Part shown: piece after piece, positions 32,359 to 58,027 of the stretch
Layout of the letters: every line of letters begins with the position of its first letter
Numbering within the stretch: the first letter of the stretch is position 1
From: an uncultured Myxococcales bacterium
GTDB lineage: Bacteria; Myxococcota_A; UBA9042
Length of the DNA stretch: 64,000 bases
Assembly: GCA_903924465.1 (NCBI GenBank)
Contig: CAIYBN010000056.1
Coordinates: forward strand, 1,291-65,290
Direction of reading: 5' to 3'
The notes under the pieces: generated by a model
Told to the model about the DNA's origin: nothing
The model's input: the letters and a program-made list of their open reading frames with translations, nothing else
Databases searched by the model: none
Translations under genes and position numbers: made by a program

Positions 32359-33432
32359 ATGCCTTTTGATTTGGACCAAGCCGCAAACCGCCTGGGCCGT
32401 GTACACGGTCATGCCGTCGCATTTCGTCAGGCGTTGCTGGACGTGGCGTTCGCAAGTGGCTGTCCGATGCGTGAACAGGCCGTGGCGCTGGAGCATGGCG
32501 ACGCGGTGACGCTGCGGATGGCGTCGCGCGATCCTGCCATGGCGGCGTCCGTCACGCGGTTTGCCATCCTGGATCTCGATCCACCGGGGCACGCGGCGAC
32601 CTGGGCGCCGGAACTGGATAGTCTGGGAGGGCCTGGGCTCGCGCAGATCTGGGCGGTCGCGCTGCACACGCTCCTGGGCCAGACGGACGAGCGGCCGTGG
32701 GAGCTCACGTACACGCGCGGTCCCGCGCTGGGCGTGTCAGCGTACGTGCGCGATCGCCTCGATGCGCAAGCCTCGACGATCCAGTTGGTGCCGTGTCCAT
32801 CCGTGCCGTCGCACGGTCGGGCGATGGACGGCGTTGCGCTGACCCTGGAACCGACGCAGAACGTGTCGCGTCGTGCTGAATCCGGGTGGACGGTGTCGCT
32901 GACCGTCGCGGGAGAGGACGCGCTGGCGCGTCTGCGCTCATGGCTCCACGGCGTGTCCGGCGCGTGGACCCTGCATCAGCTCGACCTGCGCAGCCACGAT
33001 GCACTCACCGCGCTGTTGTGCGCCGATCGACCGCTTGAGCCGCCACCGGGGATCGCAATTCAGGCGTGGCCGGAGTCGCCACGGCTCTCCTTTCCAGTCA
33101 ACGAGGCGCTGATGGCGTGGCCGGAGACTTGGCTGCCTCGGCCGCTGGCGGTGCGCACGCTTGACGCCGGACTCTGGCTGGCTGGGCTGACATCAACCGT
33201 CGCAGAAGATGCAGCACTGCCGGAACGGGCCGGGGCGCTGGCTTTGACTTGGCAGGTCGAGTCGGTCGCGCGGGAGGTCAGCGCGCAAGTGCTGGTTGCG
33301 GTTGACGCTGCCGAATCCATCGGCCCGGTTGCGGCGGGTCTGGATGGGCCGATTTGGCGACTGCCTGGGGCGGGTGAACGGGCCTTGGCCGCGCGCGGAT
33401 TGGCGGCCAGACTCAGCGCGCGGTCGACGTAG
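32359..33432 (+). CDS. Hypothetical protein
   Basis: 357 aa ORF with a GGAGG ribosome-binding site 5 nt upstream of the ATG. Protein-like composition, no recognizable domain. Convergent with the giant gene. Confidence 0.45.
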   Translation: MPFDLDQAANRLGRVHGHAVAFRQALLDVAFASGCPMREQAVALEHGDAVTLRMASRDPAMAASVTRFAILDLDPPGHAATWAPELDSLGGPGLAQIWAVALHTLLGQTDERPWELTYTRGPALGVSAYVRDRLDAQASTIQLVPCPSVPSHGRAMDGVALTLEPTQNVSRRAESGWTVSLTVAGEDALARLRSWLHGVSGAWTLHQLDLRSHDALTALLCADRPLEPPPGIAIQAWPESPRLSFPVNEALMAWPETWLPRPLAVRTLDAGLWLAGLTSTVAEDAALPERAGALALTWQVESVAREVSAQVLVAVDAAESIGPVAAGLDGPIWRLPGAGERALAARGLAARLSARST

Positions 33433-39400: not shown

Positions 39401-39409
39401 AGCGTTCAT
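33413..39409 (-). CDS. Giant secreted protein made of tandem thrombospondin-type-3-like Ca-binding repeats (DxDxDGxxDxxE), continuous in frame with a C-terminal beta-rich module
   Basis: Signal peptide MNARRFAVCLLVLSFAVGRPAYA. More than 60 Asp-rich DTDGDGLxDGxE repeats over about 1,650 aa. Then a MYXO-CTERM-like Cys/Gly/hydrophobic/RRRSR segment, followed directly, with no stop codon, by a signal-peptide-like stretch and a roughly 350-aa beta-rich domain. The start was chosen at MNARRF inside the longer ORF 33413-39694. Confidence 0.8.
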   Translation of the reverse strand: MNARRFAVCLLVLSFAVGRPAYAVDTDGDGLDDAWEAGYFGDLKQNGNGDPDGDGLSNANEQAAGTDPTRKDTDGDGLSDFAELFPQPGKSKTQPTLADTDGDFLSDGDEVLIYGTNPTLADTDGDNLPDNLELQVSKTDPLKLDTDGGFSDDGQEVLIDHTDPLKPDDDKKDSDGDKLTDWQEVTVYKSDRFKVDTDGDTLTDGDEVNLYKTDPTLKDTDGDGLDDNAEIAATTDPLKPDTDGDGLKDGDEVLTYKTDPLLTDSDWDSLGDADEIGTFQTNPLKADSDGGGVYDAVEISDGTDPNKAADDTGADPDGDGLSTHYELTVSKTSPTDPDTDGDFAPDGQEVFPLDNHLVTNPLDADSDDDGLLDGKETGVLVFHVVDGKNVGQIVVGGTNPLKFSTDGDALGDGQETGVAAAPLSQKGVDDTLSPPFLPDLAPTSTTDPANADTDGDGLADSDEDKNHNGAWEPQLGETDPNKADTDGDGLDDGWEVKYADNANGADGKPLNPLDPADGQSDNDGDGLSNAVEYAQTWPDAAGKAQANRTNPRKKDSDGDGSSDKVEVLGVYQAATPTGSNPNDKDTDGDGLLDGVEDKNHNGLTDPGESSPRKKDSDGDGLSDAQEDKNANGVWDKVLNETGAANPDSDGDGLNDGVEVNFYGTNPLLTDTDGDGLLDGLETGKKGDSDPNTTTSPKNPDSDGDGLQDGQEDFNHNGKVDAKETNPQKADTDNDGLSDGVEAGKAGDADPTTTTNPLNKDSDGDGLNDGFEDTNKNGKQDWDVTLLTGETNAAKADSDGGGVPDGKEVLTDLTNPLDPTDDANGDNDGDGVKNKTEIKLGLDPKNPDTDGDTISDGQESNLGQVVDTDGDGTVDAKDLDSDGDGFPDAVEAGDANWKTPAVDTDGDGIPDFRDLDSDGDGLLDADEPKYHTDRLSNDTDHDGLADGAEIKAGTNPLDTDSDDDGLLDGEESLLDLDGDGLIGALDPDSDNDAILDGTEAGKTLSTVGPDTNLAKRAFVADADPTTQTNPQKADTDGDGQRDGAEDVNHNGRVDAGERDPFLAGETLYLGDQDGDGVPDAEEKVLGTAQDDADSDDDGVPDGVEWNMSCDSDLDGASNAADADSDNDGLPDGLERGAGAPVAATNLLAFNFLPDTDPGTTTSPLLADTDGDGQRDGLEDQNANGFVDPGEGDPNAALTQTIVVDQDGDGLCDAEEARLGSNPHDRDSDDDGVLDGDEPNAAFDFDHDGLPGALDPDSDDDGLGDGLERGVTQADPQTDVSLGRFHADSDPATRTSPLAADTDHDGQPDGWEDANLNGRLDMGEGDPNDPEVQSKVPDSDGDGLCDAMETTIGSRPHDADSDDDGVPDGRECNPYVDLDGDGQNAANDEDSDGDGLYDGTEVGLTLATLAFPADTNLKTGVFLPDQDPTHTTWPANADTDRGGLPDGVEDFSHDGKVDIGETNPLVAADDGNIDGDLDGDSLDNKTELLLGTNPLKRDSDGDGILDPTEVVDPNHPLDTDKDGIIDALDLDSDNDTVPDAYESGIKPGDNSLQQKLVDSDGDGMPDCRDTDSDNDTLSDGDEVFKYHTDARLPDTDFGGLSDPIEVLQTHTNPLDPRDDSEVLEFGGRLRGTTPLSCQTTRAPQAGGALLLVLAGLVLLVRRRSRAVLLLLCVAMPATALTPLDVTSGRSNVDGVGILGVDSALQLDLHALSVGVQSQYAWRPLVVGTETRALRGLVDQRFQADGMLATRLWQGLTLGVTVPVSIWQTGSQPSLYGPQSGPLDTATAIGDIAVALKYVVFAERQQKMGLALVVPVTIPVGDPNLYMGRPGMTATPTAVASTALGPWRVAANFGVRAQGTQTLFNLTDGPAMRFALAASLNAAVAQDSWLGKWVPDGWWLDASLVHETPLKNAYQNGADEKLEATLAVGWPLGEDLYGSLGSGFGLWPGFGVPAYRPFLAIRYAPHDKTPDPQEHKPVALPSIVTSADAVEPAPMATSTAR

Positions 39410-39657
39410 GGAACTCCGCGCGGCGAATGACGGCGTCGCCGCGGTCCCCAGATTGGAGCATGAACGGTGATTTTCGGCTACACATGCTGACCCAAGACGA
39501 ACATCAAATTTGGTCGGTTGAACCTGTTCCATGTCGGATTGGGACCGCGAGCGTGTTCCGAAGGTGACACGCCGCGGTAACGGCGGCTGTGATGCTCGAA
39601 CTCGGTCAGCGTGCGTGGCGCGAACCAACGTGTCACTGGGCTGGCGCAGGGTTCCGA

Positions 39658-41949
39658 TCAGTCGCCAAAGCGCGCGCGTGCCTCGTCTTTCCACTCATCC
39701 GGCCAGTAGTAGAATCCTTCGCAGGCGATCGAGAAGAAGCAGGTCTCGCACGCCTTTTCGTGACGTCGCCGCGATTGCAGGTAGTCGAACAGGTTCACGT
39801 CGTCCATGGTCACAAACACCATGTCACGTTCCATCTTGCCGATGTCGCTGAGGCAATAGTCCTCGTACCCCGGCATGTAGCACAGCGGCAGGTTGATCAC
39901 CTGGAACTTGATGCGATCGCCAAAATCGTCAATCAGCTTCATCACCAGCGGCGCCACTTCCGCCGGATCCGGCTGGCACTCCGCGCTGGCTTTGCCAAAC
40001 GGCGTCAGGAACTGCACGTTGCACAGCTTCACGCCCAGCTTCACCAGCAGCTCGCCGTACTCCATCAGCACCGGCGAATTGACCTTGGTCAGCGTCACAT
40101 TCACGCCAAAATCGATGCCCAGCTTCTCGCACAGCGGCCGGCAATTCCGGATGCCATCGACGGTCTGGCGAAACGCGCCTTTGGCCTGGACATTCTCCTC
40201 GTGCACCGCCTCGTTCGGCCCGTGCAGGGAAATCAGCAGGCTGGTGATGCCCGACTTGACGATCTTCTCGGCGTTGCGCGGCAGGCTCATCATCCGGCCG
40301 TTGCTGGTCAGGTTGATCGCCTGGAACTGCAAGTCCTTGGCCGCGCTGATGAGCTTCTGCAAGTTCGGATTGGTCGTCGGCTCGCCGCCGTCAAAATCGC
40401 ACAGGTCGTAGCCCTTGGCACGCCGGTCCTTCAGGAATGCGATTTGCTGGTCCAGCTCGCCGTGCCAGTCGCTGCGGTTGCCCGTGGCGCAGAACACGCA
40501 CTGGTTGTTGCAGACATACGTCGTGTTCATGATGACTTTGCGCGGCTTCCACGCCGACGCCTTGGTCTCCAGCACGCGCTTGGCCGCCCACAGCTCGCCC
40601 GGCGTCCAATCCGGCCCGGTCAGCACCGGCTTGCCCTGGAACAGCGGGCCGATATCGCGGTCCTCGCGCGTCGTCCACAGCTTGTCGTTGGTCGCGGTCT
40701 TGTGCAGCTCCGTGCCCTTGATCGGCGTCGCAAACTGCACCAGCGGCTGAGCGTCAAAGTCTTCGCACAGCTGCCACGCGGTCTTCAGCGTGTTCAGGAT
40801 TTCGACCCGCGTCTCCGTCGGCTGGCCGATCATCCAGTGCACCACCAAGCGCAGCCCATGCTGCTGGCACCACTGCGCCACGCGCTGCGTCGCCGCCAGA
40901 TCGAACTTCTTGCCGATCACGTCATTGGCGATGCGGTCGTTGGCCGACTCTGCGGAAATCGACAGCACCGGCACGCGCTGCGCCATGCGGATGATCTGGC
41001 TCTCCGTCACGCGATCCGCGCGCATGCCGTTGGGAAAATCCAGGCCGAGGTCGAATTCTTCCGCGACATCCAGCAGCGCGTCAAAATGGCTGGTCGTCAC
41101 GTTGACCAGTTCATCCAGCACCACCCAGCGGTCGATGCCATAGGTCGTCTTGAGCAACTCCGCGTGCTTGCGCAGCCACTCCTTGCCGTGGCGCCGGTAT
41201 GGCTTGCCCTCCAAGCCAGCGCGCTGCCACGGGTTGGACGTGCAGAAATTGCAGCGGTAGACGCAGCCGCGCGACGTCTTGACGGCGATGACCGGCGGCG
41301 CCGAGGAGAAGATCTCGTTCTTGTGCCGGCTGGCCGAGACGCGGCCCATGAACTTCTGGAACGCTGCGATGTCGACCAGGTCGTACGCCGGCAGCGGCAA
41401 CGCGTCCAAATCCTCGACCTGAGGCGCGCCGCGGGTGATGCGATCCACCGGCTTGCCGCCCGCCGCCAGCGTCGCAACCAGCTGCGTCAACTGCCCTTCT
41501 GCCTCGTACTGCTGGCCCCACGGAATGCCGACTTCGTCGAGATCGCGCTCATCCCATTCGATGAAATGCATCCCGCCGACGTCGCAATCCGCCAGCACCA
41601 CTGGCACGTGCGGCCAGCGCTCCGCCAGGTGCGCCACGAGCCGCTTGAGCTCCGCGCTCGCCGCCCGCGCGCGCTGCCACGGCGAATTGCCCAGCACCAC
41701 GACGTCCGGCGCTTGTTGTGGCAGCCGGCCGATCAGCGTCGAGATCGGCACGCCGAGGCGCAGGAATTCCTTGTTCTCGTGGATGAGGTTCGACGTCGGC
41801 AGGCAAAACGCGTCGAGCACCGTCACCGCATGACCGTCCACGCGCAGCTGCGCGGCGGCCTGCCAGAGCCCCAGGCTGGCAAAAGTCGGATAGTCGATGT
41901 ACGCCGCATGCAGCAAAAGGGGCGGCTGAATCAACAGGACGTGGGCCAA
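39658..41949 (-). CDS. Fusion protein: B12-binding (class B) radical SAM domain + radical SAM/SPASM-type domain
   Basis: 763 aa. The N-terminal half has a B12-binding-like Rossmann region followed by CVYRCNFC (CxxxCxxC). The C-terminal half has a second CNNQCVFC motif, GGEPT, a PLCYM motif, and a C-terminal Cys cluster CETCFFSIACEG (Cx2Cx5CxG, SPASM/twitch-like). Confidence 0.85.
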   Translation of the reverse strand: MAHVLLIQPPLLLHAAYIDYPTFASLGLWQAAAQLRVDGHAVTVLDAFCLPTSNLIHENKEFLRLGVPISTLIGRLPQQAPDVVVLGNSPWQRARAASAELKRLVAHLAERWPHVPVVLADCDVGGMHFIEWDERDLDEVGIPWGQQYEAEGQLTQLVATLAAGGKPVDRITRGAPQVEDLDALPLPAYDLVDIAAFQKFMGRVSASRHKNEIFSSAPPVIAVKTSRGCVYRCNFCTSNPWQRAGLEGKPYRRHGKEWLRKHAELLKTTYGIDRWVVLDELVNVTTSHFDALLDVAEEFDLGLDFPNGMRADRVTESQIIRMAQRVPVLSISAESANDRIANDVIGKKFDLAATQRVAQWCQQHGLRLVVHWMIGQPTETRVEILNTLKTAWQLCEDFDAQPLVQFATPIKGTELHKTATNDKLWTTREDRDIGPLFQGKPVLTGPDWTPGELWAAKRVLETKASAWKPRKVIMNTTYVCNNQCVFCATGNRSDWHGELDQQIAFLKDRRAKGYDLCDFDGGEPTTNPNLQKLISAAKDLQFQAINLTSNGRMMSLPRNAEKIVKSGITSLLISLHGPNEAVHEENVQAKGAFRQTVDGIRNCRPLCEKLGIDFGVNVTLTKVNSPVLMEYGELLVKLGVKLCNVQFLTPFGKASAECQPDPAEVAPLVMKLIDDFGDRIKFQVINLPLCYMPGYEDYCLSDIGKMERDMVFVTMDDVNLFDYLQSRRRHEKACETCFFSIACEGFYYWPDEWKDEARARFGD

Positions 41950-46550: not shown

Positions 46551-46777
46551 GCTGCTTTGCGGGCACTTATGCCTATGGGGTGACTATCCTGCAAGTGCGG
46601 GATGGGCACAACAGCCGATTCAGTGACCATCTTGCAGTTGCGGGATAGGCACTCATGCCGACTCAGTGCCCATAAAGCAGTTGCAGGATGGTCACTCATG
46701 CCGACTCAGTGCCTATCATGCAATTGCGGGATGGGCACCCATGCCGACCAAGTGGCTATCTTGCAGCTGCGATCAGG
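46551..46777. repeat. Tandem direct repeat array, about 43-bp unit x roughly 5.5 copies
   Basis: Units read from the sequence: gtgactatcctgcaagtgcgggatgggcacaacagccgattcagt / gaccatcttgcagttgcgggataggcactcatgccgactcagt / gcccataaagcagttgcaggatggtcactcatgccgactcagt / gcctatcatgcaattgcgggatgggcacccatgccgaccaagt / ggctatcttgcagctgcgatcag. Each unit carries a small dyad atggg..cccat. There are no intervening unique spacers. Confidence 0.8.
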
Positions 46778-50236: not shown

Positions 50237-51111
50237 CAAAACCGCCCCGTCAGCAGCAGACCCTGCGGTGTGGGCAGCAGCGCGACCTTGTCGGGATGGC
50301 GCAGCAAGAGCCACGTGCCCCCGCCCGCGCACGCCAGCCCGCCCACGCCCAGGCCGATGCCCACGCCCAGCCGGGTGTTGAGCGAGGTCACCGTCGCCGA
50401 GGCCGTCTGGTAATTCGTGCCGACAATCTTGCCATCAGGCCCCAACGTGCCGCTGTCGCGCTTCCAGGCCGCGGCATCCGCCAGCGTGGACAGGCTCACG
50501 CCCAAGCCAGCGATGAACAGCGCGCCGCCACCCGCCACCAATGCCCATGGCACCAGTTCGTTCTCGGCTAGACGGCGCGGCGCCTGAAGGACCACAGGCG
50601 GCGGCGCAACCGGCTCACGCTGCGGCAACGTCTCGACCGTTTTCACCACCACCACCGCGGGCGGCGGTAGCGGCTGCGGCGGCTCCACGGTTGACCGCGG
50701 CGGTTGGGCCACCGGCGGCGGCGCAACGGGCAATGGCGGCGGCGCGGCGCTCTTCTCCACCGCGTCGATTTCATCCAGCGCTTTCTGAGATTTCAAGAAG
50801 TACGGGTCCGTGCCCGGCAGCAGCCCCATGAGGCTCTCGAACGCCAGCCGCGCGGCCTTGAATTTGCCGGCCTTCTGCTCGGATCGCCCAACGCCGAACA
50901 GGTATTCCGGCTTGGTAGGATCGATCCGGTACGCGCGTCGGTAGAGATCGGCGGACGCCACGTACGCCTGATGCCGGTAGTAGTCGATGGCCTGCTTGGC
51001 GACCATCGACGCTTCCACGGCCGGCGCGGGCGGTGCGGCCAACACCGGCAGCGCCAGCAACAGCACAGCCGCCACGAGCACACGGCGCAGAATCTGCCGA
51101 GCCATCGCCAT
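50236..51111 (-). CDS. TPR-repeat protein with a Pro-rich linker and C-terminal hydrophobic region
   Basis: Signal/anchor MAMARQILRRVLVAAVLLLALPVLAA. TPR-like segment (YYRHQAYVASADLYRRAYRIDP). PPPV repeats. Confidence 0.5.
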   Translation of the reverse strand: MAMARQILRRVLVAAVLLLALPVLAAPPAPAVEASMVAKQAIDYYRHQAYVASADLYRRAYRIDPTKPEYLFGVGRSEQKAGKFKAARLAFESLMGLLPGTDPYFLKSQKALDEIDAVEKSAAPPPLPVAPPPVAQPPRSTVEPPQPLPPPAVVVVKTVETLPQREPVAPPPVVLQAPRRLAENELVPWALVAGGGALFIAGLGVSLSTLADAAAWKRDSGTLGPDGKIVGTNYQTASATVTSLNTRLGVGIGLGVGGLACAGGGTWLLLRHPDKVALLPTPQGLLLTGRF

Positions 51112-51353
51112 GGTTGCATCCGGAAGCAGGAAGTCTGCTGCGGCGAGGATGGCTGGTGGAACGTTGCGGTGCAATTGCACTCGCTGACCGACGGTCGAGA
51201 TCACGCCTCCGCCAGCCGCGGCGTGCCACAGGAGGTGCACGCTCGCGGTCCAGTCCGAAAGGCAACAGCTCTGACTGGCCCGGCTTGGCATCCGACAAAG
51301 ATCAGGAGTTACGACTCGCAGTCTCCGCATCGCTCATGCTACCCTCGCGCGCC

Positions 51354-53171
51354 ATGACGCACCGCGCTTTCGTTCCACCCAAACCGCCGCCGATTGAACT
51401 GCTCGACCCGCTGGTGGCCAACCAGATCGCCGCGGGCGAGGTGGTGGAACGGCCGGCGTCGGTCATCAAGGAGCTGGTCGAGAACAGCCTGGACGCCGGT
51501 GCGACGCACATCCAGATTCGCCTGAAAGAGGGCGGAAGCGTGCTGGCGCAGGTCATCGACAATGGCTATGGCCTGGATGGTCCCTCAGCGAAGCTGGCGT
51601 TCCTGCGCCATGCGACGTCCAAGCTGCGCACGGCTGAAGAGCTGATGGGCATCCAGACGTTCGGCTTTCGCGGCGAGGCACTCGCGTCGATCCTGGCGGT
51701 GGCGCACGTGACGCTGACGTCCCGGCGTGCGGACATGGACGTGGGCGTGCGGCTGACGGGCGGTGGCGCGACCGGGCTGCGTGAGGAGCCCGCGGGCTGT
51801 CCGGTGGGCACGGACATCCAGGTGGCGGACCTGTTCTTCAACGTGCCCGCCCGCCAGAAGTTCCTGCGGACGGCAGCCACCGAGCTGGGGCAGATCCTGC
51901 GCTTTGTCGATGCGCTGGCGCTGGCACGGCCGGACCTGCATCTGACGGTGCACCACAATGACCGCAAGGTCGCGGATTATCCCGCCGACCGGGACCTGAT
52001 GCGCCGCACGCATGCGGTGCTGGGTGGCGAGGTGGCGGCGCGGCTGTACCCGCTGGCGGATGACTTGGAATACCAGGTGCGCGGCCTGCTGAGCGAACCG
52101 AGCCTGCACCATGGCGGCCCGGGACAGCTCACGCTCTTGGTCAATGGTCGGCATGTCGCGGATCGCACGCTGCAGCACGCGGTGATCTCGGGCTACGGCA
52201 CGCTGCTGGAGCGCGGCCGCTATCCCGTGGGCATTCTCGCGATTGATTGCCCGCCGGGCACGGTGGATGTCAACGTGCACCCGGCCAAGACGGAAGTGCG
52301 GTTTGTCCAGAGCCAGGCGGTGTTTGCCGCGGTCGTGCGCGCCATCCGCGGCATGTTGGCGGGAACGCCGTGGGTCAAGGAGCCCATCACGGTCAATCTC
52401 GCTGCGCTGACGGAGCAGACGCCAACGGTCCACGACTTTCCAGCGCTGCGACCGGGGCCGGTGCGGGAGCAGCTGCCGTCGGCCTGGCGCAACACCCCGG
52501 TGCGGCCGTTCAAGCACACGCAGCCGTTTTCCAGCGGCGTGGAGGACGCTTTCCAGCCGCCGCTGCCGCAAGCGCAGCCGCAACCGACGACGTACAGCGG
52601 CCTGCGCTACGTCGGGCAAGTCGGCAAGTGCTTCCTGGTGTGCGAAACGGCGGATGCGTTGGTGCTCATCGACCAGCACGCCGCGCACGAGCGCATCCTG
52701 TTCGAGCAGTTTGTCCAGCGCGCCCGGACCCAAGGCTATGCGATGCAGCAGCTGCTGATTCCGCAGATGATTCCCCTGGTTCCGGCGGAGGTCGCAGCGC
52801 TGGATGAAGCGGCCGACCTGCTGACGCCGTTGGGTTTTGTCGTGGAAGCGGCCGGCGAACGTGCCGTGCGTCTGCGGGCCCATCCGGCGATTCTGCGCGA
52901 CCGTGATGTGGTGGCTGAAGTGCTGGCGTTGGCGGAATCCTTGGCCCAAGGCGGTCGCGGCGCGCGCACGCTGGAGACGCTGGAACGCGCTGCGGCCACG
53001 CTCGCCTGTCACGCCGCCTGGCGCGCCGGTGATGTGATGACCGCGGACGACGTGCAACGCCTGCTGCGGGAGATGGAAGGCGTAGATTTGTCCGCCTACT
53101 GCCCGCACGGCCGACCGGTCGTGTTTCGCGCGCAGTGGCAGGAAGTCGGCCGCTGGTTTGGGCGCCCGTAG
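51354..53171 (+). CDS. mutL: DNA mismatch repair protein MutL
   Basis: GHKL ATPase N-terminus (IAAGEVVERPASVIKELVENSLDAGAT). C-terminal dimerization domain. 605 aa from MTHRAF. Confidence 0.9.
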   Translation: MTHRAFVPPKPPPIELLDPLVANQIAAGEVVERPASVIKELVENSLDAGATHIQIRLKEGGSVLAQVIDNGYGLDGPSAKLAFLRHATSKLRTAEELMGIQTFGFRGEALASILAVAHVTLTSRRADMDVGVRLTGGGATGLREEPAGCPVGTDIQVADLFFNVPARQKFLRTAATELGQILRFVDALALARPDLHLTVHHNDRKVADYPADRDLMRRTHAVLGGEVAARLYPLADDLEYQVRGLLSEPSLHHGGPGQLTLLVNGRHVADRTLQHAVISGYGTLLERGRYPVGILAIDCPPGTVDVNVHPAKTEVRFVQSQAVFAAVVRAIRGMLAGTPWVKEPITVNLAALTEQTPTVHDFPALRPGPVREQLPSAWRNTPVRPFKHTQPFSSGVEDAFQPPLPQAQPQPTTYSGLRYVGQVGKCFLVCETADALVLIDQHAAHERILFEQFVQRARTQGYAMQQLLIPQMIPLVPAEVAALDEAADLLTPLGFVVEAAGERAVRLRAHPAILRDRDVVAEVLALAESLAQGGRGARTLETLERAAATLACHAAWRAGDVMTADDVQRLLREMEGVDLSAYCPHGRPVVFRAQWQEVGRWFGRP

Positions 53172-53200
53172 GCGCGGCGTTCAGGTCACGCTGATGAAGG

Positions 53201-53986
53201 CTAGCGCAACGCACCCGCCGTAAACGCGCTCTTGGCCGGCGCGGTCGACGGTCCTTCGGCAACAAATCGCACCGATTTTGGATCATCGCCGGCACCGCGC
53301 AATTGGAACGCCTCGGGTTGGCCGGCGCCGTTGAACGCTTCCCAGTCGACTTCTCCCAGCTTGGCTCCCTTGCCATCGCTGATGGCGGTGGCAATCAAGT
53401 AGCCGGAGCGTTTGGAGATGGACACCTTGGCGGGACGCGCCGTCACGCCCAATTCATAGCGCGGCGCCAGACGCACAACGGCCACTTCGTCAAACTCACC
53501 CTCCACCGTGGGCGTGTACTGCGATTGCCATTCCAGCGCACAGAACATGATCCACGGCACACCGAGAATGGGTTGGGGGCGGAACACCGCTTCGTGCGGC
53601 AGCAATTTGGCCTTCTCACCGCCGACGCGCAGCCACGCCTTGGCGCCATCCATGACAACGCCCGTGCCCAGCAACTCCGCCGGACCTGCGACAACGCGCA
53701 CTTGCAGCTGAGCGTGGCCGACAAAGCTCCGGGCGACCGCAATCTTCAGCCCTGCCATCGGGTGCCCGGCCGGCACATCCGCTTTGAAGACGCGCTGCCA
53801 GGGCTTTTGTGCCGAACGCTGGAGCGCCAGCTCGGCAATCGCAGGCGCACCCTTGCGGCGAATATCCAGCCATTCGGTGGGCGGCGCCGCGAGCGCGAAG
53901 GACGCCAGCAAACACTGCGTGGCCAGCAGGCAGCGTGTCAGGAAGAGGTTGCGGTGAAGGCGCCGGAAGACCATTGGACGACCCAA
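53201..53986 (-). CDS. Secreted hypothetical protein
   Basis: Signal peptide present; no recognizable domain. Confidence 0.45.
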   Translation of the reverse strand: MGRPMVFRRLHRNLFLTRCLLATQCLLASFALAAPPTEWLDIRRKGAPAIAELALQRSAQKPWQRVFKADVPAGHPMAGLKIAVARSFVGHAQLQVRVVAGPAELLGTGVVMDGAKAWLRVGGEKAKLLPHEAVFRPQPILGVPWIMFCALEWQSQYTPTVEGEFDEVAVVRLAPRYELGVTARPAKVSISKRSGYLIATAISDGKGAKLGEVDWEAFNGAGQPEAFQLRGAGDDPKSVRFVAEGPSTAPAKSAFTAGALR

Positions 53987-54233
53987 GCACGGCGGCGATG
54001 CCGCGAGAGGTCAGATTGCCCCTCGCCACGGGCTCGGTCAAGTTCAATGGCGCACAAGCGGAATTCTCCACGCCCACATCGACGGTTGCAGCTGGCGAGA
54101 ACGACGTCACCCGCGCGGCAACCCGCTGTGCCGGAAGAAGTTACCGTCATTCGCGTGCATCGCGTGCCAAGATCCGGCACACTGACCTTTCGCGTTCCTT
54201 CCGGCCCGGAAGCCGCGTCCACGGAGTCGATTC

Positions 54234-55502
54234 ATGGCCAACCTCGGCTACATCCAGATGGTCCGGCACTGCAACCAGAACTGCGGGTTCTGCTCCAATC
54301 CGGAGACGCCGTTCTTCCACAATCTGGAGCAGATTCACGAAATCGTGAAGGATTTCGTCAGTCGCGACTACTTTGGCGTCATCATGACCGGCGGCGAGCC
54401 CACGCTGTCGCCGATCCTGCCGGAAGCGATTGCCCACGCCCGCGAGAACGGCCTGCACGTGCGGATGATTACCAATGGCCAGAAGCTCGCCGATTGGGAT
54501 TACTGCAAATCCTTGGCCGATGCCGGTTTGCAGCATGTGCACGTATCGATTCACAGTCACAAACACAAGCTCGAAGACTTTCTAACCGGTACGCCGGGCT
54601 CGCTGGACTGGGCGGAAAAGGCGCTGACCAATCTGGGCAAGACCAACATCACGGTCAACATCAACACGGTCATCAACCGCTACAATTGCGACCATCTGCA
54701 CGAAAACATCGAATGGTTCATCCAGAATTTCCCGTTCATCCGGCATTTTGTCTGGAACAACCTGGACCCGTCGATCGGTCGCGCCACCAGCAACCAGTAC
54801 TTCACGGCGCGGATGCAGGACATCGAGGTGAGCCTGTCCAAGGCGATGCGCATGCTGGCGGAAACCGGCCGGTCGTTTCGCGTCGAGCGCGTGCCGCTGT
54901 GCTACATGACTGAGTTTGCGCATTGCTCGACTGAAACGCGTAAAATCGTCAAATCGGAAGAGCGCATCGTGCATTTCCTCGACAACAAGGGCACCGTGCG
55001 CCAGACCGAATGGGGCCATTTGTACGCCGATGTGTGCAACGTCTGCAGCCTGCGCTCCATCTGTGGCGGCCTGTTCGACCGCGGCGACGCTTACGATCCG
55101 AAGGAGCTGTCGCCGATTTTCAGCGATCCCAAACCGATCATCGCGCGCATCGTCCAGGATTTGCAGTCCGATCCGGCTTGGCGCATGGCGAAATTCAAGA
55201 ACCTGGCGGCAGTTCCGGCGGCGCACCAGGGTAAATCCGGGAGCCAGAAGAGCATGGCGGGCGGCGAAGTGTCGCGACCCGGTAAAGTGCAGGCGCCGAC
55301 CGGCGAGCGGCTGGTGCAAATGGCGATGGACCCGAAGCGCAAGACGGATCACACGGCGCATGACTGGACGCCGGAAACGGCGGGCTGGCATCCGTCGGAC
55401 GATGAAGAGGACGTGGACGAAGGCCTCGTCGTGCCGCCAGAGCCCGTTTCGACAGGGCGGGTTGCGGCGTCGCGCCTTGATGTTCGATCCGGACAAGAGT
55501 AG
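54234..55502 (+). CDS. Radical SAM/SPASM-type enzyme (paralogous to the C-terminal half of the 39658-41949 fusion)
   Basis: CNQNCGFC (CxxxCxxC). GGEPT. PLCYM. C-terminal Cys cluster CNVCSLRSICGG. Roughly 110-aa disordered acidic/Pro-rich tail. GGAG ribosome-binding site. Confidence 0.85.
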   Translation: MANLGYIQMVRHCNQNCGFCSNPETPFFHNLEQIHEIVKDFVSRDYFGVIMTGGEPTLSPILPEAIAHARENGLHVRMITNGQKLADWDYCKSLADAGLQHVHVSIHSHKHKLEDFLTGTPGSLDWAEKALTNLGKTNITVNINTVINRYNCDHLHENIEWFIQNFPFIRHFVWNNLDPSIGRATSNQYFTARMQDIEVSLSKAMRMLAETGRSFRVERVPLCYMTEFAHCSTETRKIVKSEERIVHFLDNKGTVRQTEWGHLYADVCNVCSLRSICGGLFDRGDAYDPKELSPIFSDPKPIIARIVQDLQSDPAWRMAKFKNLAAVPAAHQGKSGSQKSMAGGEVSRPGKVQAPTGERLVQMAMDPKRKTDHTAHDWTPETAGWHPSDDEEDVDEGLVVPPEPVSTGRVAASRLDVRSGQE

Positions 55503-55595
55503 AAGCAAGAGGTCACGCCAGTCCGGTCGCCCCCCGCCGGATGCGCGTTCGCCCTCCCACATCTGGGGCAATTTGCATCACAGGAGTACTTGAGC

Positions 55596-56036
55596 ATGGG
55601 CCAGCCGCACATTGAGAAACTCGACCCGAAAACCAGTACGATGACGCTGTCGCTGGACATCGGCCTGTACCCCGCGGACGTGCTGTACGCCGCCGCCTAC
55701 GTGTTCCTCGACCGCGCGTACGTCTTGCTGGATCGTGCCGGTCCGCGCTTTGAAGTGCACCTGCGCGGCAAAGGCGAGCTCGACGAAGCGCAGCTGACCG
55801 CGATGTCCGGCGAGTTTGAGAACGAGCTGCTCGCTCAGGCGCTGCGCCGCAAGGTCGTCAAGGCCAACCAGAAGATCATCGAAGACATCACCAGTCAGGC
55901 CATCGCGGGCGCGGCGGGCGGCACGCTGCCCACGGATTTCCTCGCTGCAGGCGACGACGGCATGGACTTTCTCGACGACCCGCTGGGCATCGCGGTGCCG
56001 TGGGAAGAGAAATTCAAGAAGAAGAAAGACGCCTGA
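55596..56036 (+). CDS. Small protein A of the rSAM cassette (poly-Lys C-terminus)
   Basis: 146 aa from the ATG at 55596 (AGGAG ribosome-binding site 8 nt upstream; the track ORF starts 6 nt earlier at TTG). Ends ...EEKFKKKKDA. Paralogous to the next small ORF. Confidence 0.65.
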   Translation: MGQPHIEKLDPKTSTMTLSLDIGLYPADVLYAAAYVFLDRAYVLLDRAGPRFEVHLRGKGELDEAQLTAMSGEFENELLAQALRRKVVKANQKIIEDITSQAIAGAAGGTLPTDFLAAGDDGMDFLDDPLGIAVPWEEKFKKKKDA

Positions 56037-56097
56037 GAGACGTCCAACAAACGTCAGCGTATCCCAACTGTTCTGATCTTTTTGCGGGGTTCTCTTC

Positions 56098-56337
56098 ATG
56101 AGCCATGTCACACACCAATCCGTCAAGCTGCACCGCACGCTGTACATGCAGCAGGCGGTGAAGGAAGCGGCGACGACATTCGCGGATTTCGCCTCGTTCG
56201 CCATCAAGCGCGACGGCGATTACTACGCGGTCGACATCCGGGACATCGACCCGGACGTGGACGGCGACGTGGTCGCGGAATTCTGCAACTTTGCGCTGGC
56301 CAACACGGCGAGCCGCAAGAAATCCAAGAAAGCCTGA
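56098..56337 (+). CDS. Small protein B of the rSAM cassette (paralog of A; poly-Lys C-terminus; N-terminal SHVTHQS..HRT)
   Basis: 79 aa. Shares a LY..A..F.D.A....RDG...V..R...D...V..EF.N..LA core with the 146-aa protein. Ends ...ASRKKSKKA. Lies immediately upstream of the RRE-containing rSAM gene. Confidence 0.55.
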   Translation: MSHVTHQSVKLHRTLYMQQAVKEAATTFADFASFAIKRDGDYYAVDIRDIDPDVDGDVVAEFCNFALANTASRKKSKKA

Positions 56338-56365
56338 ACGGCCGCAGTGAGAGGAGCGAACACGG

Positions 56366-57928
56366 ATGACAGCGACCACGCTTCAGACCAAGAGCCAGAA
56401 GCACGATCTGCTGCCCAAAGGCAAACAGGTTGATCTGACGACGATTTCCAGCCCGGGTCGCTGGAAACCTGAGTTCGCCGTGCCGTTCAACCAACGGCAG
56501 CTTGGCAGCAAGATTCTGATCACCAACGACATGGGCGATTGGGATCTGCTGAGCCGCGAGGAATTCCGCGACTTCATCGAAGGCAAGCCGCAGCCGGGCG
56601 AGCCGCTGTATGAACGACTGAAGACCCACAATTTCATCGCCAAGGAAATCGACATCACGGCGCAGGCCGAGCGGTGGAAGCGCAAGAAGCAATACCTGTT
56701 TTACGGTCCGACGCTGCACGCGTTTGTGCTCACGCACCGCTGCAATCACGGCTGCCAGTATTGCCACAGCTCGATCGTCGGCATGGAGCGGACCGACACG
56801 GACATGTCGATCGAGACCGCCGAGCGTGCCGTCGATCTGGTGTTCCAGACCACGAGTCCAGGCATCACGATTGAGTTCCAGGGCGGCGAGCCGACCGCGA
56901 ACTGGGAAGTGTTGCAGCACGTCGTCGAATACGCGCGGCAGAAGAACGCGTTGGCCAACAAGGCGCTGTCATTCGCATTGGTCACGAACTTGTCGCTGAT
57001 GGACGACGAGAAGATGGAGTACCTGCTGGACCGCAAGGTGCAGATTTGCACCAGCTTGGACGGTCCGGAGGATTTGCACAACAAGATCAGGATCTTCAAG
57101 GACGGCAACAGCCACGCGAACTTGATGCACTGGATCAAGCGCATCAACGACCGCTACGGCGAGCTGGGCTTGGATACAAACCTCTACCGCGTGGAAGCGC
57201 TGCCGACGATCACCAAGCCGGGCTTGCACCGGTGGAAGGAAATCGTCGACACGTACGTGGAAGCGGGCTGCAAAGCGGTGTTCCTGCGCAAGCTCGACCC
57301 GTTCGGCTTCGCAGAGCGCACGGCCAAGACGCTGGGCTATTCGATGGACGACTTCCTGGAGTTCTATGCGCATGCCGTGGACTACATCATCGAGCTGAAC
57401 CGCAACGGCACGCAGGTGATGGAGCGGCATGCATCGATCATGCTGAACAAGATTCTGGCCGATCAGGAGCCCAACTACCTGGACCTGCGCACGCCCGGTG
57501 GCGCATGCATCGGCCAGCTGGGCTACGCGCCCGACGGTGGCGTGTATTCGAGTGACGAAGGCCGGTTTGTCGCCGCAATGGGCGATGACATGTTCCGGAT
57601 TGGCACGGTCGAGGACACGTACCACCAGTTGATGACGAACGCGCAGACCCGCGCGATCGTCATGGCGGGCTTGAACGACGCGCAGCCGGATTGCGTCAGC
57701 TGTGTCTACAAGCCGTGGTGCGGCCAGCAGGTCGAGTACAACTACAAGACGCAAGGGTCGTTGCACGGCCACATGCGCGACTCGGTGTGGTGCAAGAAGC
57801 ACAAGTCGATTTTCGACTATTTGATGTACAAGCTGGAGAACGCCGACGAACGCGACATGGAGATGTTCCGCCGCTGGACGACGAACCGTCAGCTGGAACA
57901 CTTCCTTCAGGAGCGCGCGCCGCTGTGA
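56366..57928 (+). CDS. Radical SAM/SPASM-domain peptide-modifying enzyme with an N-terminal RRE-like extension
   Basis: GAGGAG ribosome-binding site. Roughly 110-aa N-terminal extension (ILITNDMGDWDLLSREEFRDFIEG, PqqD/RRE-like). CNHGCQYC. GGEPT. C-terminal SPASM Cys cluster (CVSCVYKPWCG). Confidence 0.9.
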   Translation: MTATTLQTKSQKHDLLPKGKQVDLTTISSPGRWKPEFAVPFNQRQLGSKILITNDMGDWDLLSREEFRDFIEGKPQPGEPLYERLKTHNFIAKEIDITAQAERWKRKKQYLFYGPTLHAFVLTHRCNHGCQYCHSSIVGMERTDTDMSIETAERAVDLVFQTTSPGITIEFQGGEPTANWEVLQHVVEYARQKNALANKALSFALVTNLSLMDDEKMEYLLDRKVQICTSLDGPEDLHNKIRIFKDGNSHANLMHWIKRINDRYGELGLDTNLYRVEALPTITKPGLHRWKEIVDTYVEAGCKAVFLRKLDPFGFAERTAKTLGYSMDDFLEFYAHAVDYIIELNRNGTQVMERHASIMLNKILADQEPNYLDLRTPGGACIGQLGYAPDGGVYSSDEGRFVAAMGDDMFRIGTVEDTYHQLMTNAQTRAIVMAGLNDAQPDCVSCVYKPWCGQQVEYNYKTQGSLHGHMRDSVWCKKHKSIFDYLMYKLENADERDMEMFRRWTTNRQLEHFLQERAPL

Positions 57929-58027
57929 TTCTGGCTGCAGCGCGCTGTTTTCGCGCGCGCAGGTAAGGAGACCGCCGCGCGGCCTCCTCGGATTCTGCAA
58001 GCAGAATCCTCACCTCCAGCGGGGGCG

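What the first reader, a model, noticed from the sequence alone, without database searches (positions are those of the whole stretch)
54234..57928. Compact cassette: two radical-SAM/SPASM enzymes flanking two paralogous small poly-lysine-tailed proteins (candidate undescribed peptide/protein-modification system)
Four co-directional genes, each with a good ribosome-binding site.
- rSAM-1 (422 aa): CNQNCGFC plus a Cx2Cx5CGG cluster.
- Small protein A (146 aa) and small protein B (79 aa), which are paralogs.
- rSAM-2 (520 aa): CNHGCQYC plus a SPASM cluster, and a roughly 110-aa N-terminal extension that looks like a PqqD-type RiPP recognition element.

An RRE-bearing SPASM enzyme sitting directly after a small ORF is the classic RiPP precursor-maturase arrangement. 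The pairing of two distinct rSAMs recalls 'paired maturase' systems such as the His-Xaa-Ser (HxsBCD) system. No HxS-repeat precursor is evident, though, and the small proteins look unlike classic short RiPP precursors: a conserved roughly 70-aa core, a variable middle and a KKKK tail. I cannot place the cassette in a named family from sequence alone.
Basis: partly seen in the sequence, partly recalled or inferred. Interest (0 to 1): 0.85.

Follow-up and report, generated by a model that had tools for sequence, protein, structure and literature searches.

The report
Partial variant His-Xaa-Ser maturase cassette
The four genes are the enzyme-and-helper core of a known but little-studied "His-Xaa-Ser" protein-modification system, in an unstudied variant; the two small proteins are most likely helpers rather than substrates, and the real substrate gene is not in this window.

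Summary
All four ORFs are real, co-directional and under strong purifying selection (dN/dS 0.04-0.11). The cassette can be placed in a named family.

- **Identities.** NCBIfam calls rSAM-2 HxsB (521 bits, cutoff 370), small protein A HxsD (54.8, cutoff 50) and small protein B "HxsD-like" (70.2, cutoff 41). rSAM-1 hits HxsC best but fails its cutoff (108 vs 268).
- **Known relative.** The canonical HxsD-B-C-A operon was shown in 2026 to be an antiphage system. There HxsB and HxsC mature the HxS-repeat effector HxsA, and HxsD binds HxsC.
- **Conservation.** The exact order C-D-D'-B recurs in 19 of 63 related loci, and D-D'-B in 49.
- **Substrate.** Eleven related loci from at least ten organisms encode a leader + (His-Gly-Ser)~15-20 + Trp protein near these genes. 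One scores as NCBIfam HxsA4 (135 bits).
- **What the window lacks.** It has no HxS-repeat gene. It does hold a fifth related double radical-SAM gene 12 kb away (39658-41949, minus strand).

"Cannot be placed" and "small proteins as substrates" do not. This is a reduced, split copy of an uncharacterised multi-rSAM Hxs variant.

The parts
54234..55502 (+). HxsC-like radical SAM enzyme ('C', 422 aa). The core CX3CX2C is at C13/17/20, and one auxiliary four-cysteine cluster is at C223/268/271/277. The last ~110 residues are unconserved.
   Evidence: Best NCBIfam hit is HxsC TIGR03977 at 108 bits, below its 267.9 cutoff; HxsC4 scores 86.8, below 500. Pfam finds Radical_SAM. Cysteine conservation was measured over 115 homologs. 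Identity to a canonical HxsC is 17.6% (E 2e-6), and the canonical ~110-aa N-terminal domain is missing. Orthologs at 50-95% identity occur in 36 related loci.
55596..56036 (+). HxsD-family protein ('D1', 146 aa; an alternative TTG start at 55590 gives 148 aa). It has a folded HxsD domain (residues 5-106) and a disordered tail carrying the conserved DFLDDPLGIAVPWE motif and KKKK.
   Evidence: HxsD TIGR03976 scores 54.8 bits, cutoff 50. There are 1602 homologs; the listed ones carry Pfam PF27806 and many are named HxsD by NCBI or JGI. In the AlphaFold model, 10-residue blocks between residues 11 and 80 average pLDDT 86-94, falling below 60 after ~110. Conservation is shown.
56098..56337 (+). HxsD-like protein ('D2', 79 aa), a remote paralog of D1.
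   Evidence: NF038315 HxsD-like scores 70.2 bits, cutoff 41; TIGR03976 scores 19.6 bits. hhalign against the D1 profile gives 74.8% probability, E 2.6e-5. It always lies between D1 and HxsB, in 49 loci.
56366..57928 (+). HxsB, a SPASM-class radical SAM maturase (520 aa) with a ~120-aa N-terminal domain ahead of the core.
   Evidence: TIGR03978 scores 520.9 bits, cutoff 370, covering residues 39-505. Identity to a plasmid-borne canonical HxsB is 35.5% over 471 aa. Nearest solved relatives are CteB 5wgg and anSME 4k36. Conserved cysteines are 126/130/133, 228, 381, 443/446/452 and 476.
57921..57942 (+). Terminator-like hairpin overlapping the HxsB stop codon; a possible operon end.
   Evidence: Consensus scan only. 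Seven such sites were found in the region against 5.8 expected by chance, so the evidence is weak.
39658..41949 (-). Distal, probably related component: a 763-aa double radical SAM protein. Residues ~120-430 are a B12-binding-type rSAM (CVYRCNFC); residues 468-698 are an HxsC4-like rSAM (CNNQCVFC).
   Evidence: It is 37-40% identical over its full length to the 'r772' gene that lies between C and D1 in the extended clusters. It is 71-72% identical to partial genes ~9-10 kb from HxsB in loci L037 and L064. Best NCBIfam hit is HxsC4 at 111 bits, below the 500 cutoff.
54135..54233 (.). Synteny breakpoint just upstream of the cassette.
   Evidence: DNA similarity to five close relatives (L009-L013) begins at window 54135-54214 and runs to the window end. 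Those relatives carry two more rSAM genes (317 and ~656 aa) upstream. The window has mutL and a 261-aa ORF instead.

Best explanation
The cassette is the maturation core of a variant His-Xaa-Ser (Hxs) system.

**Components**
- HxsB is a SPASM-class radical SAM enzyme.
- A divergent HxsC-like radical SAM enzyme carries one auxiliary Fe-S cluster.
- Two HxsD-fold proteins sit in tandem. I infer they are adaptors or chaperones for the radical SAM enzymes, as E. coli HxsD is for HxsC. They may work as a heterodimer.

**Substrate (inferred).** The substrate is not either small protein. It is an HxsA4-type precursor: a ~60-aa leader followed by about 15-20 His-Gly-Ser repeats and a terminal Trp. In this genome it must be encoded outside the 64-kb window. 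Two further HxsC-like rSAM genes that sit upstream of C in the closest relatives must also lie elsewhere. One further double rSAM gene lies 12 kb away in the window.

**Chemistry (inferred).** The enzymes would install covalent modifications on HxS units. The only precedent is a +8 Da change on SHRSS in E. coli HxsA.

**What is shown and what is not**
- Shown: family identities, gene co-conservation, purifying selection, and linkage of HxS-repeat genes to these enzymes in relatives.
- Inferred: the adaptor role, the identity of the substrate in this genome, and the chemistry.
- Open: the biological role. An antiphage envelope barrier is the only experimental precedent, but the chromosomal, vertically conserved context here fits a core envelope or metal-related product about equally well.
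For: **Family identities**
- Curated scores: HxsB 520.9 (cutoff 370), HxsD 54.8 (cutoff 50), HxsD-like 70.2 (cutoff 41); rSAM-1 hits HxsC best.
- NCBI and JGI already name D1 homologs HxsD, and they carry Pfam PF27806.
- A canonical annotated hxsD-B-C-A operon was fetched for comparison. Its HxsB is 35.5% identical to the window's.

**Published function of the canonical system (PMC13128918)**
- All four genes are needed for defence.
- HxsC pulls down HxsD.
- HxsA is the modified, exported effector.

**Conservation**
- 49 of 63 loci with a HxsB relative keep D1-D2-HxsB together.
- 36 also have the C ortholog within 10 kb.
- 19 have the window's exact gene order.

**Substrate linkage in relatives**
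- (HGS)n genes were found by regex in ten loci (L001, L003/L004, L014, L016, L017, L020, L025, L028, L058).
- The L025 copy scores 135 bits on NF038313 HxsA4, cutoff 55.
- L073 carries three repeat-protein genes directly after HxsB, two of them scored as HxsA4 (98.8 and 59.4 bits), with the C ortholog next to them.
- In Plesiocystis pacifica the repeat gene directly follows HxsB.

**The small proteins look like folded accessory proteins**
- D1 models as a compact beta-beta-alpha-beta-beta-alpha domain.

**The cassette is maintained.** dN/dS is 0.035-0.108.
Against: - No HxS-repeat gene is in the 64-kb window. None is within 10 kb in any of the 19 loci that share the window's gene order. The substrate in this lineage is therefore unobserved.
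- rSAM-1 fails the HxsC equivalog cutoff and lacks the canonical N-terminal domain.
- No protein in any locus reaches the HxsC4 cutoff.
- D1 has a conserved motif in a disordered tail, which could itself be a modification site.
- The adaptor role of HxsD rests on one pull-down and an AlphaFold 3 model in a distant system.
Confidence: 0.72

Rival explanations
1. The four genes form a self-contained system, and one or both small proteins are the substrate. The likeliest site would be the disordered, conserved C-terminal tail of D1, with the HxsD domain acting as a large built-in leader.
For: - No separate precursor lies in the window or within 10 kb in the 19 loci with the same gene order.
- The D1 tail is disordered yet carries a conserved F-[LIV]-x-D-[PA]-x-G-[IL]-x-x-P-[WFL] motif.
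- D2 sits directly upstream of HxsB.
Against: - Both proteins belong to the HxsD family, which is an accessory, not the substrate, in the characterised system.
- The D1 tail motif is equally conserved in loci that do encode an HxsA4 precursor nearby, such as L014, L017, L025 and L058. It is therefore not a replacement for the precursor.
- Candidate target residues in the motif vary (W/F/L, E/H/Q).
- D1 residues 5-106 model as a folded domain, and D2 aligns to that core.
Confidence: 0.12
2. An orphaned remnant. A rearrangement cut the cassette off from the rest of the cluster (the two upstream rSAM genes and the precursor), and it no longer functions.
For: - Synteny with close relatives breaks immediately upstream of C.
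- The two rSAM genes found there in relatives are missing from the window.
Against: - All four ORFs are intact, with dN/dS 0.035-0.108. They are more conserved at the DNA level (about 86%) than the flanking housekeeping genes (about 77%).
- Dispersal of components is common in this system. In Plesiocystis C lies 6 kb from HxsB and the repeat gene; L003 has the C module without HxsB.
Confidence: 0.04
3. The same machinery acts on a different, non-HxS substrate in this lineage. Candidates are the co-located secreted or outer-membrane proteins: the Asp-box propeller-like 360-aa protein downstream here, or the paired small beta-barrel proteins downstream in sister lineages.
For: - No HxsA-type gene is seen near any locus with the window's gene order.
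- Conserved downstream neighbours exist: f39 in L011-L013, and the f7 pair in at least seven loci.
Against: - The downstream neighbours differ between sub-lineages while the cassette stays constant.
- They have no His/Ser repeats or leader-like region.
- The 360-aa protein evolves faster, with dN/dS about 0.2.
Confidence: 0.08

Closest known systems
Canonical HXS antiphage system, HxsD-HxsB-HxsC-HxsA (Li et al., Nat Commun 2026, PMC13128918; first defined bioinformatically by Haft and Basu)
   Same: - It has an HxsB-family SPASM radical SAM enzyme. The window's HxsB passes the equivalog cutoff and is 35.5% identical to a canonical one.
- It has a second, HxsC-related radical SAM enzyme.
- It has a small HxsD-family protein.
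- In relatives of the window locus, an HxS-repeat protein is encoded nearby.
   Different: - Gene order is C-D-D'-B rather than D-B-C-A.
- There are two HxsD paralogs, one with a long disordered tail.
- The HxsC-like enzyme fails the family cutoff and lacks the N-terminal domain.
- The window has no HxsA.
- The associated precursor in relatives is leader + (HGS)15-20 + W. Canonical HxsA has five HxS repeats; a signal peptide and peptidoglycan-binding domain were not looked for in the repeat proteins here.
- Extended clusters add 3-5 more rSAM genes and a HExxH hydroxylase.
- The host range is Myxococcota, Binatia and others. Canonical HxsA is 99.7% Pseudomonadota and is often on plasmids or near restriction genes.
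NCBIfam 'type 4' Hxs families: HxsA4 (NF038313), HxsC4 (NF038332) and HxsD-like (NF038315). These are database models with no publication found.
   Same: - D2 passes the HxsD-like model.
- Precursors next to the orthologous enzymes in relatives pass the HxsA4 model.
   Different: - No rSAM protein here or in the related loci reaches the HxsC4 cutoff of 500 bits. The best are 111-122 bits, for the second domain of the double rSAM.
- HxsA4 itself is absent from the window.
SPASM peptide and protein maturases with solved structures: CteB (5wgg, SCIFF thioether) and anSME (4k36)
   Same: - HxsB aligns to the CteB radical SAM core (query 122-249 to chain 103-232).
- It aligns to anSME through the C-terminal cluster domain.
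- The ~120 residues ahead of the HxsB core sit ahead of the aligned core, as the first ~100 residues of CteB do.
   Different: - Only about five of the usual seven SPASM cysteines are conserved in HxsB.
- Whether the N-terminal domain is a recognition element is unresolved.
Accessory-protein-dependent radical SAM peptide pathways: PqqE with PqqD, MftC with MftB (my own knowledge, not tested here)
   Same: This is a 'works like' analogy only. A small non-catalytic protein partners a radical SAM enzyme that modifies a ribosomal peptide.

Membership tests
His-Xaa-Ser (Hxs) system | HxsB-family radical SAM/SPASM maturase (TIGR03978 at or above 370 bits) | tested here: met
   520.9 bits over residues 39-505. 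35.5% identity over 471 aa to an annotated canonical HxsB.
His-Xaa-Ser (Hxs) system | HxsC-family radical SAM maturase (TIGR03977 at or above 267.9 bits) | tested here: not met
   HxsC is the best hit, but at only 108.1 bits. Identity to a canonical HxsC is 17.6% (E 2e-6), and the N-terminal ~110-aa domain is missing.
His-Xaa-Ser (Hxs) system | Small HxsD-family protein (TIGR03976 at or above 50 bits) | tested here: met
   D1 scores 54.8 bits. D2 scores 70.2 bits on HxsD-like NF038315, cutoff 41. Homologs carry PF27806 and the HxsD name.
His-Xaa-Ser (Hxs) system | HxsA-type protein with tandem His-Xaa-Ser repeats encoded with the enzymes | tested here: not met
   None in the 64-kb window by regex, tandem-repeat finder, tblastn or His-rich scan. 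It is present near orthologous enzymes in eleven related loci.
His-Xaa-Ser (Hxs) system | [quoted passage not shown] | tested here: not met
   The order here is C-like, D, D-like, B. The canonical order was confirmed in L074 and in the literature.
His-Xaa-Ser (Hxs) system | HxsC-HxsD physical complex, rSAM-dependent modification of HxsA, and an antiphage phenotype | not testable with these tools
   Known only from experiments on the E. coli system.
NCBIfam type-4 Hxs set (HxsA4 / HxsC4 / HxsD-like) | HxsD-like protein (NF038315 at or above 41 bits) | tested here: met
   D2 scores 70.2 bits.
NCBIfam type-4 Hxs set (HxsA4 / HxsC4 / HxsD-like) | HxsC4 radical SAM protein (NF038332 at or above 500 bits) | tested here: not met
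   C scores 86.8 bits and the window double rSAM 111.1 bits. The best in related loci is 121.8 bits.
NCBIfam type-4 Hxs set (HxsA4 / HxsC4 / HxsD-like) | HxsA4 precursor (NF038313 at or above 55 bits) | tested here: not met
   Absent from the window. Relatives score 135, 98.8 and 59.4 bits.
RRE-dependent RiPP maturase with adjacent precursor | PqqD-type recognition element at the N-terminus of the SPASM enzyme | tested here: inconclusive
   No PF05402 hit at E up to 0.01. A profile of residues 30-122 finds nothing among PDB sequences. The single-sequence AlphaFold model has pLDDT 40.8 and is unusable. The only support is position: HxsB has ~120 residues ahead of the core that aligns to CteB.
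RRE-dependent RiPP maturase with adjacent precursor | The adjacent small ORF is a leader-core precursor peptide | tested here: not met
   The adjacent ORF D2 is an HxsD-like protein homologous to the folded D1 domain.
SPASM-domain radical SAM enzymes | Seven-cysteine C-terminal domain binding two auxiliary clusters, in both enzymes | tested here: inconclusive
   HxsB aligns full-length to anSME-class models but keeps about five domain cysteines. rSAM-1 keeps only four, enough for one cluster. Pfam SPASM did not hit either protein at E up to 0.01.

The most novel reading that the evidence does not exclude
The Myxococcota/Binatia HxsA4-type clusters make a new class of heavily modified poly(His-Gly-Ser) product. 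The clusters hold up to seven radical SAM domains plus an alpha-ketoglutarate HExxH beta-hydroxylase. They would act on a precursor of 15-20 identical HGS units. The role of the product would differ from the E. coli antiphage barrier, for example a metal-binding or envelope polymer. The tandem HxsD/HxsD-like pair would be the scaffold that hands the repeat array from one rSAM to the next. The window cassette would be the conserved core of that machine.
Probability: 0.3. Interest if true: 0.8.

Novelty: new variant of a known kind. Interest (0 to 1): 0.5.

Why it matters
- **An open chemistry question.** The Hxs system was tied to a function (blocking phage DNA entry) only in 2026, and its radical chemistry is still unknown.
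- **What this variant offers.** This locus belongs to a widespread, strongly conserved variant outside Pseudomonadota. It has duplicated HxsD proteins, many HxsC-like enzymes and a far more repetitive precursor. That gives natural material for asking what HxsD does and what modification HxS units receive. It also lets one ask whether Hxs systems are always defence systems.
- **For annotation.** The practical message is narrower. The cassette should be labelled as a partial Hxs-type maturase set, not as a new self-contained RiPP system.

Tried and rejected
- **PADLOC (2023 models).** Only generic viperin-type radical SAM hits. The library predates the HXS paper, so this says nothing either way.
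- **First HxS regex.** It returned nothing in the window and only fragments in the loci, for reasons not diagnosed. The corrected tandem regex found the precursors in relatives and still none in the window.
- **Apparent C-HxsD fusion protein (P0033).** I considered it as Rosetta-stone evidence and rejected it. The middle of the protein is out-of-frame Arg/Pro-rich sequence, so it is a frameshift artefact.
- **Copper link.** MopE and Cus neighbours appear in L001, L003 and L073. I did not pursue this. The MopE motif is common in secreted Cys-rich myxobacterial proteins, and the association is faint.
- **Recognition element in HxsB.** The Pfam scan, a PDB profile search and single-sequence AlphaFold were all uninformative.
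- **Other system genes in the window.** tblastn with the 317-aa and 623/656-aa rSAM genes, the HExxH hydroxylase and the HxsA4 leader found nothing beyond C and the double rSAM gene.
- **Promoters.** No sigma-70-like promoter was found upstream. This is uninformative for this phylum.

Full report
**1. Observation**

- 54234-55502, 422 aa
- 55596-56036, 146 aa (148 aa from an upstream TTG)
- 56098-56337, 79 aa
- 56366-57928, 520 aa

Intergenic gaps are 93, 61 and 28 bp. Shine-Dalgarno-like sequences precede genes 1, 2 and 4; gene 3 has only a weak one. The quoted cysteine motifs and the Lys-rich ends are present.

The genes are real and maintained. Against three close relatives, dN/dS is 0.04-0.055 for rSAM-1, 0.035-0.047 for small protein A, 0.087-0.108 for small protein B and 0.048-0.072 for rSAM-2. 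The neighbouring thymidine phosphorylase gene gives 0.08-0.095.

**2. Identity of the four proteins**

NCBIfam results:

| Protein | Family | Score (bits) | Cutoff |
|---|---|---|---|
| rSAM-2 | HxsB TIGR03978 | 520.9 | 370 |
| Small protein A (D1) | HxsD TIGR03976 | 54.8 | 50 |
| Small protein B (D2) | HxsD-like NF038315 | 70.2 | 41 |
| rSAM-1 (C) | HxsC TIGR03977 (best hit) | 108 | 268 |
| rSAM-1 (C) | HxsC4 NF038332 | 87 | 500 |

- The local Pfam copy sees only Radical_SAM and Fer4_12.
- A profile search with D1 homologs returned 1602 proteins. Many are already named "His-Xaa-Ser system protein HxsD" by NCBI or JGI, and the listed ones carry Pfam PF27806 HxsD.
- D1 and D2 do not align by BLASTP. 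Their family profiles do align, with hhalign probability 74.8% and E 2.6e-5 over 70 columns. They are remote paralogs.

**3. What is known about the family**

Li et al. (Nat Commun 2026, PMC13128918) showed that the E. coli hxsD-hxsB-hxsC-hxsA operon is a broad antiphage system that blocks phage DNA entry.
- All four genes are required.
- HxsA is the effector. It has five HxS repeats and a peptidoglycan-binding domain. It is N-terminally processed, carries a +8 Da modification on SHRSS, and is exported to the periplasm.
- HxsC pulls down HxsD.
- 99.7% of HxsA-defined systems are in Pseudomonadota, and 99.6% have the order D-B-C-A.

I fetched a canonical annotated operon from an Aeromonas salmonicida conjugative plasmid. 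Its proteins are HxsD 96 aa, HxsB 484 aa, HxsC 401 aa and HxsA 192 aa, and it lies next to a type I restriction subunit and a TnsA gene. Compared with it:
- The window HxsB is 35.5% identical over 471 aa.
- C is only 17.6% identical (E 2e-6) and lacks the ~110-aa N-terminal domain of HxsC.
- D1 and D2 are not detectable by BLASTP.

**4. Conservation and the larger system**

A scan of one genome per species with the window HxsB gave 64 loci. They are mostly Myxococcota and Binatia, with some Thermodesulfobacteriota and unclassified "Deltaproteobacteria" MAGs. HxsB identity is 60-95% in all but one locus, an archaeal one at 39%. Mapping the window proteins onto them gave:

| Feature | Loci |
|---|---|
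| HxsB relative (at least 45% identity) | 63 |
| D1-D2-HxsB in that order | 49 |
| C ortholog also within 10 kb | 36 |
| Window's exact order C-D1-D2-HxsB | 19 |
| C lies 3.4-8.4 kb upstream | 17 |

ORF clustering and family scans show two architectures.
- **Binatia / Polyangiaceae type.** rSAM(596 aa) - rSAM(623) - C(345) - double rSAM(772) - rSAM(~320-358) - D1 - D2 - HxsB - HExxH protein. The last is TIGR04267, an alpha-ketoglutarate HExxH peptide beta-hydroxylase (83 bits, cutoff 40).
- **Myxococcales type (closest to the window).** rSAM(317) - rSAM(~656) - C - D1 - D2 - HxsB.

All the extra rSAM proteins hit HxsC or HxsC4 best, and all fall below the cutoffs.

**5. How the window differs from its closest relatives**

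- DNA similarity with five close relatives starts at window 54135-54214, just before C. It runs to the end of the window.
- The cassette is about 86% identical at the DNA level, against about 77% for the flanks.
- Upstream, the window has mutL and a 261-aa ORF in place of the two rSAM genes.
- The window does contain a fifth related gene, at 39658-41949 on the minus strand.
  - It is a 763-aa double rSAM, with a B12-binding-type module followed by an HxsC4-like module.
  - It is 37-40% identical over its full length to the 772-aa gene of the extended clusters.
  - It is 71-72% identical to partial genes ~9-10 kb from HxsB in L037 and L064.

**6. The missing substrate**

A tandem-repeat regex over all loci found a ~105-115-aa ORF in ten loci: L001, L003/L004, L014, L016, L017, L020, L025, L028 and L058. 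Each has three parts:
- a leader. In the Binatia-type loci it is conserved (MSDKKKNGLPELRKKPLDFLSPAEARQAVKPVAALDTSEAAQALRTEPNSEKMLLAQHMSHAS); the L001 and L003/L004 leaders differ;
- about 15-20 His-Gly-Ser repeats;
- a final Trp.

Further points:
- The L025 copy scores 135 bits on NF038313 "His-Xaa-Ser repeat protein HxsA4", cutoff 55.
- In Plesiocystis pacifica the repeat gene directly follows HxsB.
- In L073, three repeat-protein genes follow D1-D2-HxsB, with the C ortholog beside them. Two scanned copies score 98.8 and 59.4 bits on HxsA4; the third was found by profile search.
- A profile search found 180 such proteins. Many lie on contigs under 2 kb, so the repeat may break assemblies (my inference). 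Some come from Patescibacteria and Omnitrophota, where NCBI already uses the HxsA4 name.
- No such gene is in the window. This was tested by regex, tandem-repeat finder, tblastn with leaders, and a His-rich scan.
- None lies within 10 kb in the 19 loci with the window's gene order.
- No publication mentions HxsA4, HxsC4 or HxsD-like.

**7. The small proteins**

- With a 31-sequence alignment, AlphaFold gives D1 a confident compact domain. The topology is beta-beta-alpha-beta-beta followed by a long helix, spanning residues 5-106. Ten-residue blocks between residues 11 and 80 average pLDDT 86-94.
- The tail from ~107 to 146 is disordered.
- The tail holds a conserved F-[LIV]-x-D-[PA]-x-G-[IL]-x-x-P-[WFL] motif in all lineages. 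The KKKK run is lineage-specific.
- The motif is also present where HxsA4 is encoded nearby. It is therefore more likely a docking motif than a replacement substrate. This is inference.

**8. The enzymes**

- C has invariant C13/17/20 plus C223/268/271/277, enough for one auxiliary cluster. Its last ~110 residues are unconserved.
- HxsB has C126/130/133 plus C228, C381 (81%), C443/446/452 and C476.
- HxsB's nearest solved relatives by sequence are CteB and anSME.

**9. Interpretation**

The cassette is the conserved core of a variant Hxs system. It holds HxsB, one HxsC-like enzyme and two HxsD-fold accessory proteins. The expected substrate is an HxsA4-type poly(His-Gly-Ser) protein encoded elsewhere.

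Function is open. The only experimental precedent is antiphage defence. Against a typical mobile defence island here:
- HxsB is about 77% identical between Binatia and Myxococcota.
- Selection is strong.
- The neighbours are housekeeping genes (mutL, thymidine phosphorylase).
- The canonical systems, by contrast, are often plasmid-borne.

**10. Verdict**

This is a real feature and a new variant of a known kind. The window holds only part of the system. It is of moderate interest.

Noticed in passing
window 39658-41949 (- strand): A 763-aa protein with two radical SAM cores (CVYRCNFC and CNNQCVFC). It is homologous over its full length to the double rSAM gene inside the extended Hxs-type clusters. 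It lies 12 kb from the cassette and is probably part of the same system.
   Followed up: partly
window 33413-39694 (- strand): A giant ORF (up to 2093 aa) directly downstream of the double rSAM gene. It has a signal-peptide-like start (MNARRFAVCLLVLSFAVGRPAYA) and dozens of DTDGDGLxD calcium-binding-type repeats, and it ends in an outer-membrane-like domain. It coincides with a strong AT-skew anomaly at 36-38 kb (-0.30).
   Followed up: no
window 46580-46765: A tandem repeat of a 43-bp unit, 4.3 copies, 81% matches. It lies in what looks like an intergenic stretch between two large genes.
   Followed up: no
window 54135-54233, and 51033-53986 upstream: Synteny with five close relatives stops just upstream of the cassette. 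The window has mutL and a 261-aa ORF with no family match where the relatives have two more radical SAM genes. The cassette has lower G+C (0.60-0.62) than its flanks (0.65-0.68).
   Followed up: partly
L073 8157-10198: Three separate repeat-protein genes (92, 83 and 65 aa) lie directly after HxsB in one metagenomic contig; the first two score as HxsA4. A weak MopE-like ORF sits between them.
   Followed up: partly
L025 11520-18339 (also L016, L020, L058): Between HxsB and the HxsA4 gene there is a conserved run of three genes: the HExxH beta-hydroxylase, a PDZ-domain protein on the opposite strand, and a ~1250-aa protein made of myxobacterial cysteine-rich acidic repeats (TIGR02232).
   Followed up: partly
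D1 residues ~121-137 compared with HxsA4 leader residues ~15-25: The conserved D1 tail motif (DFLDDP...) resembles the PLDFLSP stretch of the HxsA4 leader. This could be chance, or the tail could mimic the leader.
   Followed up: no
L021 and L052 (record titles): Two MAG contigs labelled Klebsiella pneumoniae and Enterobacteriaceae carry this Myxococcota-type cassette, with HxsB 74-78% identical to the window's. The taxonomic labels look wrong.
   Followed up: no
L070 2884-4771: A Nanobdellota archaeal MAG contig has an HxsD homolog directly upstream of an HxsB homolog (39% identity). The pairing therefore extends to archaea.
   Followed up: no
L038 7217-8614 (also L042, L043, L052, L054, L064, L065): In a sister lineage, two paralogous small proteins follow HxsB. 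Each has a signal peptide and a C-terminal ...YSW, which suggests outer-membrane beta-barrels. Neither matches any family.
   Followed up: partly
protein P0033 (hit): A database protein that looks like a fusion of the HxsC-like enzyme and HxsD is a frameshift read-through of two adjacent genes, not a real fusion.
   Followed up: yes
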